From assembly GCA_964187785.1 (NCBI GenBank), contig OZ076409.1:78928001-78992000 (forward strand): a stretch of 64,000 nucleotides of DNA. The letters run 5' to 3'. Numbering within the stretch: position 1 is the first letter of the stretch; each line of letters opens with the position of its first letter. Origin of the DNA: Amphiscolops sp. MND2022 (lineage: Eukaryota). Position numbers and translations under genes: made by a program. Shown here piece by piece: positions 25,074 to 29,392 of this stretch. The notes below the pieces were generated by a model that was not told the DNA's origin, did not search any database, and saw nothing but the letters and a program-made list of their open reading frames with translations.

Positions 25074-28000
25074 ATGCTGGTTGTTTTTCAGTTCAGTCCT
25101 GCCTGTTCGCCAGCACGCGACACCACCAGCACTACTACTGATAATTTGCAGTTTGTAAACAACCACACTCCATTAAAGGTGCTACCATTTTCTCTGATGG
25201 ATCAATCATCCCGAAGCCGACTTCCATGTCCACCCAGGCCAGTATCTTCCTCGTCCTCGCTGACTGTCGCAGAGCCCCAAACTCGAACCGACCAGCTTGG
25301 TCTCACCCAGACGAACGCTCAACTAGACGTCTCGCCAACACTAGCCACCGGAATAGCTATGCTGACCGCTCAACTGCAGACTCTGCAAACACACCCGGAC
25401 TTCACGCTGTCCATCTCCATTGGAATTGGCTCATACTGCCGCACAGCCAAACTCCACAATGGAACATGGCAGGGCCATGACCTCACTCATCACTTCGATG
25501 ACCATAGATCAAGTCTGCCTTACAATGAACCTAATTGGCCCTCCATGGAGCAACAGCAAGTGCGACCAAATCCATCGCAAATATCCGTAGCGACACCAAT
25601 CACTGCTCCCGAAAGTGCCATAGACAATCTGCCAACTCAACCAACAGCTACACAGCAATTTGTCTTTATTCTACCCACGACGCCATCACCAATGCTATCG
25701 TCGCCACCATCATCAAGCTCAATCAGTGTTAGACGCTTAGAGGACACCAACACTGGACTCATGCTCCCTTCATCTTTCAGGGGGGAAGGGGTAGAAGAAG
25801 CAAATGAAGCGCGCACGAATGCACAGAATACCGACAACACCACCGAAAATACAAGGATGAGCCAGAAACCGAGAGTCATAACGATGCGAAATCCATTCGA
25901 CCTACCCATTATGACAGAGGTGATCGGGTCTCTAGACTCATATGACGCCTTATTACCCTCAACGTCGTCGGACCCTCAACACCTAATAGGTTTCCAAGCC
26001 GATCCTGACTTGCACGAACAACAAAAGGAGCAAGAGAAAGCAGAGAGACAAACAGCCAAGGCCCCCATCGACCTCCGAGATGTGCTAAACAAAAAGGAGC
26101 AGAACAAGATCGAGCAACTGGCCCAAAAGAAAAGAGCCAGAGATTTGGCCAATGCAGATGCAACAAACTCAAGCCCGAATCCCTCTCCCATACAACAGCC
26201 GGAGGCTAGAAGAGTGCGATTTTCTGATGAACTCTTGTCGCAGACAGAGGCACGGCAGTACGACATTACTGCAAGAGACGCGGCGCGTCTGCAGAGAGAA
26301 GTCAAGTCAGGAAATCCAGACTCAGATTTGGACGTGCAAAAATTCGATACCGCCACCAGCAAAGGCAATCCAGAGGATGTGAAGAACCTAGAAAAAGCAT
26401 CGATTGGAATGCACTACTTGAGACCCGTGAAAAAGCCAACACTCTTGTTAGACCGCATTCCTCCATGGTTCGAGAGAGTGAGAGAAAGTCTTCACAAAGA
26501 CAAATCGTCACTCGTAAAGCCACTACCGTCAAAGGTAAAACTGTCAGTACAACGACCAGCAAGATATGACGACCAACTGCTGAAAAGCAGAGGTTTCATG
26601 AGGGACGTGACAACATTGCTCCCCATGGGCAAAGAAATGTTACAGAAGACAAGGATTGCCCTGCTCATGGATTCAACGATGAAGGCAACGGCGAATATGA
26701 ACAACACCCTGATGGATGTTCGCGTGATGAACCTGCCCTGCACGTCGTTAGAAGAAATGACCGAGGTGACCTGCAAGGTCTTTGGTCCCGCCGTAAACCA
26801 CACGGAAACCATTCCTTTTCCTCCACTCTTAATTTACAGCAACGTGATTGATCACTTAGCCTTTCGAGCAACATTGAAGTATTTCGAAGGAGGCAACCAC
26901 AGATTGACAGAGGAATTGATGACCGGCGAAGTAGTTGCATATGTTGAAGCAATGAGGACCGTAATCAGACATGTCCAGAAAAAGAAACCTACTATAGGTG
27001 TGATCTTTGTATCACCCCCTGGATATGTACTACTACCAAAGCCACTTCAACAATTTCTGTATCTAGTTTCGGAAGCAGCGTACGCCCAGAACCTGTACTT
27101 TCATATCGTAGCCCCAAACCTGAGAATTAGCGCCTTGACCTGGCGTCCCTGCGAGAACTCTTACCCTGCATTCTTGGCAGAAATCTCGAAAGCCGTGCAA
27201 GCCTACACAGGATATCAGGAAACTCTCAATTGTTAGCCGATGATGCAACAGCCTTCGACTTTGGTATGCAAATGGCACACCGCACCTTTGACGAGAACGG
27301 AGTACGCCAAGTCAAAGAACCAAATGAAAAGGAAAAGTCAAACATGATCGATAACGGATGGTTTGAAAAGAGAGATGAGTCGACCCTAGATGAAAAGACA
27401 CACGACGCGAAGTTCCACAAAGAGCTGGTAGCTCTCTTCAAGAGATCCGAAGAGATTAAGCAGGCCAGAACTAACGCAACAGTCTTCCCAGTCGCAACAC
27501 AAGCCCTTGACTCTAAACCCAGCATGGTCTCTCCAACCCTGGTGCTATTAACAGTACTAGCCCGAAAAATAGTACGAGAAAATCGTACCAACCCAGAGCA
27601 TTCTTATCAGTCTTGGCATGAGAAGCTGCAAGAAACTCTAGCAGAAGTAGCTGAACGCCATGGAATTCCCTTTCCTATTTTTCTTTATAATATATCACCG
27701 TTTTGGGTACCTACAATGGTGCAAAGTGAAAGCAGCCTGCACGAGCAGCAAATCAAATTGTACGTAGAAGCAATGCAGAGGGCCACAATTAGCGAGATTC
27801 TGGCCTACTTAATGGTCGTTGGCCTAGGCTCCTTCTACAAAGGCCCAGTACACTTGGTGCACAAACTGATTCTAGAGAAAGCCAACACCTACTTATTTAG
27901 TTTCCTGATATTCGCAAAGAACCAGAGAAATTGGGTCAGTGCCATCCTGAATACGTTGGATCCTGCAGGCGCTTTGAAATTGCGCGCCCAACTTGCCGAG

Positions 28001-29392
28001 AACATAGAGACGATGTTAACTTGGGTCTACTCAACTTGGGTCAATGTCTCGGGTGTGATGAGCACCTTGGATGATTCATCGAGTCAAAATCGCAATAATA
28101 AAAACCTGCCAGGTTTTCTCTTCCCGTCACAGGTAGCTAGCTTAATGCTAGTAGAAACGGAAGACCTAGTCCCTGTGATTGCCCCCATAGTCTGGCCCAT
28201 ATTTGGCTCCATGATGGCGCTGCGTTATCCAACACAGCCACTCAGAGTTGCTGCCAGCACACCCACATTGTCGATCCTACACTTCGTGGATCCTGAGGAT
28301 GATACGAGGCTACCAGACCTCCACACGCTTGTGCGCAGCTTCGCAAACTTCCGACCCCCAATGGCGTACACAGTCATCAAAGACCGAAAACAAGTTGAAC
28401 ACAACTTTGTTACCCTGATCCGAGCCAGAGCGCGGTGCGCTGTACCTATGTCACTAGAATTCCACCCGGTGTAATGGCTACACGTACCTATAAAGCCCAA
28501 CACAGGAACCGTGCAGGACTTTACCAGCTGGGATGAGCCAGGAATCCTGAGAGCACTATCCAACGCCATACAACGACTAGGTGGAAGAAGGAAAGGCTCA
28601 ACATTGGAGCAACTTCGACATAGAACTGTCAGAGACACGTCACGAATGTATAATCCCAGAACAGAACCCCAGCCTGACACCGCTACGATCCTATCTAGCA
28701 CCACGTGCTGGGCAAACCCTCCAATGATTGATTGTACAGTTCACAAAAACTATCAAACCTTAAAGGCAATCACACCGAAGATCGCCAAAGAACCTAGTCG
28801 CAAGATACTACCCATTAGCGACGAGGTGCCAAACAATCCAAAAATGGCAATGGAAATATTCATGAACCTAATAGCCAAGCAAAAAGAAGAAGGCAATTCA
28901 GTTTATGCTAGTTACTTGATTGCAATACAAACCTACAGAGAGATGTTTATGAAATACGGACATCTAGACCTCGCAGATCAGCTGCCAAAATTACGCCCAG
29001 CGGGCTCGACCACAGAACAGGCAGCGAGACACGAGGAGGTTTCTGCCGGTGGCAGCACGACTTCGGCAGTATCTACCACGAGTTTAGTCAACACCGTGCA
29101 GACTGCAGCAGCAACTTCGACAAACATATCGACCAGCAATGCCAACCAGATTACCCAGATGACCGACAACATCACTATCACTCAATCTGACGATACTACA
29201 CAGCTACAAAACAATCTGGAAGATAGACATGGATCCCTCTCTCAAATACAAGCAGCAGATATCGAACTGGAATTGAATGAACTCCCTAGTCTCGACCAAC
29301 AAGATCTACCACAATCGGACGTGTTAACTGCATCATTGAACGAAGTACTGCAAGAACAGGATGTTGCAATGAATCAAGCTGGCCACGAATAG
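25074..29392 (+). pseudogene. Extra ORF downstream of pol (~1400 aa) with an SGNH-hydrolase-like domain
   Basis: ORFs 25074-27236, 27230-28474 and 28511-29392 are joined by one frameshift and one in-frame TAA. The SGNH-like segment (~26650-27215) reads IALLMDS, VRVMNLP, LLIYSNVID and VIFVSPP. Confidence 0.8.

What the first reader, a model, noticed from the sequence alone, without database searches (positions are those of the whole stretch)
25074..29392. Large non-env extra ORF with an apparently inactive SGNH (Oskar OSK-like) domain
Seen: a ~1400-aa sense ORF in the env position with only two lesions. It has low-complexity ends, a charged coiled region and a central domain with SGNH-like blocks: IALLMDS (GDS), VMNLPCTS, LLIYSNVID (GxND), YVEAMRTVIRHVQKKKPTIGVIFVSPP, and TWRPCENSY in place of DxxHP..GY. 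An unknown ~500-aa helical region follows. Known: SGNH esterases occur in ORF1 of CR1/L2 LINEs, and the Oskar OSK domain is a catalytically dead SGNH fold that binds RNA. Inference: this is an accessory RNA- or lipid-binding protein of a Gypsy element, lacking the catalytic His.
Basis: partly seen in the sequence, partly recalled or inferred. Interest (0 to 1): 0.7.

Follow-up and report, generated by a model that had tools for sequence, protein, structure and literature searches.

The report
Dispensable pseudo-esterase in giant Gypsy retrotransposon
A family of large jumping genes carries a strongly conserved extra protein whose core is predicted to fold like a fat-splitting (SGNH) esterase but has an arginine where the catalytic histidine should be, so it likely binds rather than cuts; close sister elements that lost the gene still multiplied, so it is an optional helper.

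Summary
Observation confirmed. The ORF is ORF3 of an 18.6-kb Ty3/Gypsy element. This copy has two lesions, but sister copies are uninterrupted (110 of 150 rows) and dN/dS is about 0.08-0.12. A natural sister domain models confidently (pLDDT 81.6) as an SGNH fold (best Z 11.8). The nucleophile Ser is kept (20 of 21). The His position is Arg (27 of 28) and the oxyanion Asn position is hydrophobic (register inferred). 'Oskar-like' is not supported: OSK ranks 50th (Z 8.4) and lacks the Ser kept here. The likely start is ATG 25197, not 25074. Sister lineages nested in the same clade lack ORF3 (20 of 20 fetched, a deliberately enriched sample) yet have open gag-pol frames and near-identical copies, so ORF3 is dispensable in cis. 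The family makes 3-bp target duplications (10 of 11). Best reading: a non-catalytic lipid/membrane-binding accessory scaffold (0.38); ligand untested. The ~500-aa helical region has no assigned fold. This scan noted the pseudo-esterase before on other DNA of this genome (e1-9076048, e1-9389583). New variant of a known kind.

The parts
12028..12030 (+). Target-site duplication, left copy (GTA, 3 bp); right copy at 30610-30612
12031..12294 (+). 5' LTR remnant; its 3' part, the primer-binding site and the start of the leader are deleted in this copy; 2 differences in 264 nt from the 3' LTR
15207..17824 (+). gag region with CCHC knuckle, broken by a frameshift
17812..24874 (+). pol: protease, RT, RNase H, integrase (Ty3/Gypsy order) plus a long conserved C-terminal extension; broken in this copy
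25080..25101 (+). Conserved pyrimidine-rich CAG/TCAGTT motif 105 nt before the ORF3 ATG; candidate splice acceptor, trans-splice acceptor or promoter initiator (unresolved)
25197..29392 (+). ORF3, about 1,398 codons in uninterrupted sisters; here a frameshift near 27218 and a stop at 28472-28474
25278..25550 (+). Conserved ~90-aa N-terminal block, no family match
26001..26165 (+). Charged segment (56% K/R/D/E/Q), possible coiled coil; no coiled-coil predictor was run
26553..27212 (+). SGNH-fold domain: Ser at 26673-26675 kept; Arg at 27144-27146 in the catalytic His position; near-invariant Asn/Asp/His (N-x-x-D-H) at 26841-26855
27479..28987 (+). ~500-aa mostly helical region, conserved to 21-32% identity in distant lineages, dN/dS 0.04-0.15 between subfamilies; fold unassigned; one Pro-rich hydrophobic stretch at 28166-28222
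28991..29389 (+). Low-complexity tail, acidic in clade A, least constrained part
29876..29883 (+). Polypurine tract
   Evidence: sequence
29884..30609 (+). 3' LTR, 726 nt, TGTAACGT...ACGTTACA

Best explanation
ORF3 encodes a conserved but optional accessory protein of a Ty3/Gypsy element, with a core predicted to be an SGNH esterase fold that has Arg in the catalytic His position and likely works as a lipid- or membrane-binding module rather than an enzyme. Shown: place after pol, conservation, purifying selection, residue pattern, and loss in successful sister lineages. Predicted: the fold. Inferred: (1) it is made from a subgenomic RNA that begins or is spliced at the motif 105 nt upstream of ATG 25197; (2) with no signal peptide it stays in the cytoplasm; (3) the old active-site pocket, which keeps Ser and gains a fixed Arg, holds an anionic acyl or phospholipid group without turning it over; (4) the charged segment and helical region oligomerise or scaffold, so the protein docks the element's RNA-protein particles on membranes and raises transposition in some tissues. 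Elements without it either do without or borrow it in trans.
For: Fold: pLDDT 81.6, pTM 0.81; by their titles the VIA rows are almost all SGNH/GDSL-type hydrolases, top Z 11.8, rmsd 3.6, 174 aligned. Residues: D41 21/21, S42 20/21, N98 26/26, D101 26/27, R199 27/28; the triad Asp position is variable; RPxxxSY matches HPxxxGY just before the last helix. Selection: dN/dS 0.095-0.119 within clade A between subfamilies, 0.077-0.084 within clade B, 0.05-0.09 in the SGNH core where not saturated. Depth: clades A and B share 22-25% ORF3 identity and 66-69% RT identity, with matching A/B split in both trees; three more lineages have no match above 37% in this genome. [quoted passage not shown] No canonical env features: only one consistent hydrophobic stretch, Pro-rich and internal.
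Against: No ligand, localisation or expression datum exists for this protein. ZfL2-1 and Vesta esterases keep their catalytic residues, so the precedent is not for a dead fold. Keeping the Ser for so long fits some catalysis as well as binding. Residue registers come from secondary-structure position and motif spacing, not from a residue-level superposition. The SGNH domain is about 15% of the protein; the larger helical region is as constrained and unexplained. Abundant ORF3-less sisters show that whatever it does is not needed in cis.
Confidence: 0.38

Rival explanations
1. ORF3 is a trans-acting counter-defence or host-manipulating factor: the pseudo-esterase pocket and helical region bind a host protein or metabolite, and the benefit is shared, which lets ORF3-less sisters spread as free riders.
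For: Secondary loss in lineages nested inside clade A that still have open gag-pol frames of about 3,000-3,116 codons and 99-100% identical copies; large, multi-domain, no signal peptide; strong constraint where kept.
Against: No host partner or known effector motif found. A freely shared good should relax selection, yet dN/dS stays near 0.09. Coexistence also fits simple dispensability.
Confidence: 0.22
2. The domain is a rewired enzyme: the kept Ser is still the nucleophile, activated by the His of the new N-x-x-D-H motif or by the substrate, with Arg binding an anionic substrate.
For: Ser 20/21, Asp 26/27, His102 23/27, Arg 27/28 across lineages at about 30% identity; SGNH proteins vary in their catalytic sets (PMC10792757 passages and table rows).
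Against: His102 is Asp in one whole lineage (P0178, P0182) and Tyr in P0072; triad His, triad Asp and oxyanion Asn positions are all changed; in ZfL2-1 esterase loss of the His abolishes hydrolysis.
Confidence: 0.2
3. It works like Oskar OSK: a dead SGNH fold that binds RNA and localises element RNA, for example to germ plasm.
For: Same fold with lost triad; hydrophobic residue at the oxyanion Asn position as in OSK (NIGSVD); basic patches in the linker upstream of the domain in clade A.
Against: OSK is the last of 50 rows, 3.4 Z units below the top; OSK lost the Ser that this family keeps; core domain is near neutral in most members; no LOTUS-like match. The OSK-RNA model itself is questioned in vivo (PMC12247748, abstract).
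Confidence: 0.13
4. ORF3 is an unconventional env substitute for cell-to-cell spread.
For: Env position; acceptor-like motif as for env RNAs (recalled); one hydrophobic stretch conserved in all 11 full ORFs; Rodriguez et al. leave this possibility open for enzymatic ORF3s.
Against: No N-terminal hydrophobic signal in clade A, no C-terminal anchor, no env or fusion-protein match; the hydrophobic stretch has 2-3 prolines and lies inside a conserved folded region.
Confidence: 0.05
5. ORF3 is a neutral passenger.
For: Sister lineages lost it and prospered.
Against: dN/dS about 0.1 over saturated synonymous distances and a shared domain order at 22-25% identity.
Confidence: 0.02

Closest known systems
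GDSL/SGNH ORF3 of bdelloid rotifer Vesta LTR retrotransposons (PMC5408684; passages and section 3.4 read)
   Same: Non-env third ORF with SGNH fold in a Ty3/Gypsy element; patchy presence among families.
   Different: Vesta ORF3s keep the invariant catalytic residues and lack coiled-coil/TM parts; here the domain is His-less and sits in a ~1,400-aa multi-domain protein. Homology to Vesta was not tested.
GDSL derivatives of rotifer Athena-L (Terminon) retroelements (PMC5408684, section 3.4)
   Same: Retroelement-borne SGNH fold without catalytic residues: a dead esterase in a retroelement is not without precedent.
   Different: Penelope-like, not LTR; grouped with PC-esterases; no Ser-kept/Arg-for-His pattern is described in the text read.
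Esterase of non-LTR ORF1p (ZfL2-1; CR1, L2, RTEX) (PMC3905857, passages)
   Same: SGNH fold after a charged/coiled segment; block II of the P-G type (FPGARV versus LPCTSL, MPGSTL in one lineage); accessory, not essential; PDB 4c1b appears at Foldseek rank 31.
   Different: Active enzyme with full triad; ORF1 position; far smaller protein.
Oskar OSK domain (PDB 5a4a; PMC10792757 passages)
   Same: SGNH fold lacking the triad; hydrophobic residue at the oxyanion Asn position.
   Different: OSK has Asp for the Ser and no Arg at the His position; weakest of 50 listed matches (Z 8.4); host gene with LOTUS domain.
Burro and Ogre giant Gypsy elements (PMC6431247, passages)
   Same: Very long Gypsy elements with extra domains or ORFs.
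   Different: Their extras (MATH, BIR, BCL2, env-like, unknown ORFs) do not include an SGNH fold in the passages read.

Membership tests
Ty3/Gypsy LTR retrotransposon | LTRs with TG...CA, PBS, PPT, gag then PR-RT-RH-IN | tested here: met
   PBS deleted in the window copy, present in sisters
Ty3/Gypsy LTR retrotransposon | 4-6-bp target-site duplication (usual range, recalled) | tested here: not met
   3 bp in 10 of 11 element ends, none in 1; treated as a family quirk, not as exclusion
SGNH hydrolase fold | Flavodoxin-like alpha/beta sandwich matching solved SGNH proteins | tested here: met
   (predicted model; Z 11.8, rmsd 3.6, 174 aligned)
Active SGNH hydrolase | Block I nucleophile Ser | tested here: met
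   20 of 21 rows
Active SGNH hydrolase | Block II Gly | tested here: not met
   Gly in 2 of 26 rows; Leu, Cys, His otherwise
Active SGNH hydrolase | Block III oxyanion Asn (GxND) | tested here: inconclusive
   Hydrophobic at that position by motif register, but an invariant Asn lies two residues earlier (26 of 26); profile alignment did not settle it
Active SGNH hydrolase | Block V DxxH catalytic Asp and His | tested here: not met
   Arg in 27 of 28, no His; Asp position variable
Active SGNH hydrolase | Ester hydrolysis | not testable with these tools
   needs an assay
Oskar OSK domain | Loss of the nucleophile Ser (GDDFM) | tested here: not met
Oskar OSK domain | Closest structural neighbour is OSK | tested here: not met
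   listed, but rank 50, Z 8.4 versus 11.8
Oskar OSK domain | RNA binding | not testable with these tools
   charge profile gives no support
Envelope glycoprotein | Signal peptide, C-terminal TM anchor, env homology | tested here: not met
   hydropathy scan, Pfam, viral fold search of the SGNH part only
Vesta GDSL ORF3 | Common descent with rotifer ORF3 | not tested
   sequences not in hand

The most novel reading that the evidence does not exclude
This lineage runs a producer/free-rider system: ORF3 is a trans-acting factor built on a re-purposed esterase pocket (Ser plus a new Asn-Asp-His-Arg set, possibly new chemistry) and an undescribed helical domain, which fully coding but ORF3-less sister elements exploit; the same lineage has an integrase with an unusual 3-bp stagger.
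Probability: 0.15. Interest if true: 0.8.

Novelty: new variant of a known kind. Interest (0 to 1): 0.52.

Why it matters
Why retroelements of unrelated classes keep capturing SGNH esterases is an open question. A family that has kept the fold and the Ser but replaced the His, under strong selection across lineages only 22-30% identical, separates binding from catalysis and gives a clean test case. The natural pair of ORF3-bearing and ORF3-less sister lineages in one genome allows the gene's effect on expression, insertion pattern and copy number to be read from population data alone. The 3-bp target duplication points to an atypical integrase geometry and may make standard LTR finders miss or mis-trim these elements (inference).

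Tried and rejected
Pfam gives no significant family for any ORF3 part; PDB sequence searches are blank or give only repeat-protein noise. The 832-aa core model failed (pLDDT 35.5) and was not searched, so the helical region's fold was not tested; its Atlas hits (dynein N-terminal, WASH) came with recognition 1302, below the tool's 2300 mark, and were rejected. The Atlas GDSL leads for the domain scored 0.89, leads only. Profile-profile alignment to this genome's canonical SGNH copies was too weak to fix registers (probability 7.8%). No RNA holder was listed, so splicing was not tested. A GTATGT donor candidate in the LTR is not kept in subfamilies A2 and A5 and was dropped. A search for processed (spliced) genomic copies found none among 29 loci, 40 scored DNA matches and 9 of 10 further loci. 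An idea that the 105-nt leader is coding was weakened by dN/dS 0.27-0.7 and single-base indels. The macrodomain-like look of the Pol tail got no support from Pfam or PDB sequence searches and was not folded. A search for long homologues with the deep profile returned only close relatives. Literature searches for this form found no description: 3 papers; 2; 0; for 3-bp duplications in LTR elements: 0; 4 listings, none on point by title or abstract. The library lacks most subscription journals and Repbase; no supplements were read. Genomic context of the three outside lineages could not be seen.
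Full report
Setting. The finding lies in a Ty3/Gypsy LTR retrotransposon at window 12031-30609. Pfam places a CCHC knuckle, protease, RT, RNase H and integrase in that order between 15207 and 23068. The 3' LTR is 29884-30609; the 5' LTR is cut at 12294 by a deletion that also removes the primer-binding site. The shared 264 nt differ at 2 positions, so the insertion is young. The host genome has 1.07 Gb in 1,929 contigs; it was not named.

Observation. ORF3 is there as described, with a frameshift near 27218 and a stop at 28472-28474. 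Sister copies are uninterrupted: 14 of the top 52 rows and 110 of 150 rows have frames of about 1,400 codons with no stop in the match (counted by eye; both lists are capped). The likely start is ATG 25197: the ATG at 25074 is followed by a T-run of varying length among 29 loci and is absent from other subfamilies.

Conservation. Eleven natural full-length ORF3s fall into clade A (46-97% identical) and clade B (22-25% identical to A). RT-RNase H identity is 89-97% inside A and 66-69% between A and B, and quick FastTree trees of RT and ORF3 both separate A from B. Nei-Gojobori dN/dS is 0.095-0.119 between clade A subfamilies, 0.077-0.084 in clade B, 0.092 for a young A4 pair and 0.33 for a very young A1 pair; synonymous sites are near or past saturation in distant pairs, so those ratios are rough. 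The SGNH core and the helical region are the most constrained parts. A profile search of 1.84 billion representatives gave 431 hits at E up to 0.001, of which 150 were listed. Three distant lineages among them (P0148/P0188, P0138/P0177, P0182/P0178) keep the same domain order and have no match above 33%, 37% and 33% in this genome, so they probably come from other genomes; their context was not visible. One member is labelled as a bacterial MAG protein on an 816-nt contig, most likely host contamination (inference).

Fold. A 286-aa natural sister domain folded with a 28-row alignment gave pLDDT 81.6 and pTM 0.81. The wide VIA search over 48,161 chains returned a list dominated by SGNH/GDSL-type hydrolases: PAF acetylhydrolase 1bwp Z 11.8 (rmsd 3.6, 174 aligned), 3p94 Z 11.8, sialate esterase 7pzg Z 11.6; Oskar OSK 5a4a is row 50 with Z 8.4 (rmsd 4.3, 162 aligned). 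Foldseek agrees but with weak E-values (best 8.9e-4; ZfL2-1 esterase 4c1b at rank 31), as do. The SGNH fold is therefore well supported; special kinship with OSK is not.

Active site. In alignment A9 (rows are related, not independent): Asp41 21 of 21, Ser42 20 of 21, block II Gly 2 of 26, Asn98 26 of 26, Asp101 26 of 27, His102 23 of 27, Arg199 27 of 28. RPxxxSY sits just before the last helix of the model, where SGNH enzymes have HPxxxGY, so Arg holds the His position, and the residue three before it is variable. By spacing to the invariant Asp, YSNVID matches HVGTND of ZfL2-1 and NIGSVD of OSK (PMC10792757, passages and table rows), which puts a hydrophobic residue at the oxyanion Asn position. 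These registers are inferred; an hhalign attempt was inconclusive. OSK has Asp instead of the Ser, so the two dead folds decayed differently. The core is near neutral (pI 5.4-9.2 over 22 rows).

Rest of the protein. A conserved ~90-aa N-terminal block, a charged segment, a ~500-aa helical region and a low-complexity tail have no family match. The 832-aa model failed, so no fold statement is made for them. All 11 full ORFs share one Pro-rich hydrophobic stretch (window 28166-28222); clade A has no N-terminal hydrophobic stretch, and one clade B copy has a weak one.

Expression signal. A pyrimidine-rich YAG lies 105 nt before the ATG in subfamilies A1-A4, 93 nt in A5, and 12 or 6 nt in clade B, where it follows a branch-point-like CTAAC/CTAAT. 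Other AGs with similar pyrimidine content exist in these AT-rich spacers, so the argument is conservation of position, not score. Internal promoters in animal Gypsy elements have precedent (Oikopleura Tor; PMC5240408, passages). No donor was found and no RNA could be tested.

Result against indispensability. An RT query chosen without regard to ORF3 gave 104 rows; about 28 lie next to ORF3 matches (by eye). I fetched 20 of the other 76, all plus-strand, most with gag-pol frames near 3,000 codons. None of the 20 has an ORF3 match by tblastn or by two profiles. Their pol stop-to-LTR spacer is 1,240-1,285 nt against 5,009 nt in the window. Their Pol tails are 87-89% identical to the window's; in a 22-row tree the 16 that could be extracted fall with clade A (100/100) in two groups of largely near-identical copies. 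The spacer aligns with the window's first ~300 nt, keeps the CAG motif in 15 of 20, and holds only faint collinear traces of ORF3 (E 0.016-0.07). ORF3 was thus lost secondarily, and the ORF3-less lineages kept multiplying. The sample was enriched for such copies and is not a census.

Mechanism. The most economical reading is a pseudo-esterase that binds a lipid-like anionic ligand and, with the helical scaffold, helps element particles use membranes. [quoted passage not shown] Confidence 0.38. Rivals: trans-acting counter-defence factor (0.22), rewired enzyme (0.20), OSK-like RNA binder (0.13), env substitute (0.05), passenger (0.02).

Known context. SGNH ORF3s are described in rotifer Vesta LTR elements with intact catalytic residues, and catalytically depleted GDSL derivatives in Athena-L elements (PMC5408684, passages and section 3.4). 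Giant Gypsy elements with other extras are reviewed in PMC6431247 (passages). PMC12247748 was seen as abstract and outline only. Searches found no description of a His-to-Arg SGNH inside a 1,400-aa ORF3; the library is incomplete and supplements were not read. This genome also holds repeated canonical SGNH domains (39 matches to PF13472). Earlier notes of this scan reached the same pseudo-esterase reading on other DNA of this genome; they are not independent evidence.

Side result. Ten of 11 element ends tested, from both clades and including a non-coding relative at window 44343-48652, have a 3-bp target duplication and none has a 4-6-bp one; the unrelated Gypsy element starting near 31132 is flanked by a 5-bp AATAT repeat (read from the printed flanks).

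Verdict. Real, conserved, SGNH-fold and probably non-catalytic; not Oskar-like; optional in cis. New variant of a known kind; interest 0.52.

Noticed in passing
window 12028-12030 and 30610-30612; loci L034/L036, L063/L065, L066/L068, L069/L038, L071/L037, L090/L092, L093/L095, L098/L099: 3-bp target-site duplications in 10 of 11 element ends, shorter than the 4-6 bp usual for LTR elements (recalled); two literature searches found nothing on point.
   Followed up: partly
L130-L149 (G000 copies): Abundant sister lineages with open gag-pol but no ORF3; 1.24-1.29-kb spacer with only short ORFs.
   Followed up: yes
window 23620-24874: Conserved ~420-aa Pol tail after integrase (40-83% identical across clades) that by eye resembles two macrodomain-like units; Pfam and PDB sequence searches blank; not folded. 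Kept in ORF3-less sisters.
   Followed up: partly
window 44343-48652, minus strand: Related LTR element of 4.3 kb whose inner part matches the family's long 5' leader and lacks gag-pol; same LTR ends, PBS and 3-bp duplication.
   Followed up: partly
L033:7257, L069:4909, L090:8310: The TGGCG-type primer-binding site lies about 16 nt inside from the 5' LTR end rather than next to it.
   Followed up: no
L089, L092, L109-L111 just upstream of ORF3: Clade B has a two-codon upstream ORF between the acceptor-like motif and the start codon, its stop overlapping the start ATG in most copies.
   Followed up: no
L042:2636-6142: An internally deleted copy fuses a Pol segment in frame to the SGNH domain in one 1,169-codon frame.
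   Followed up: no
window 12295-15200: About 3 kb of non-coding leader between the 5' LTR and gag, conserved at about 80-88% with the non-coding relative.
   Followed up: no
window 4715-9848 and 31132-36800: Two further, unrelated LTR elements flank the one studied; the second is a decayed Gypsy with a 5-bp duplication.
   Followed up: no
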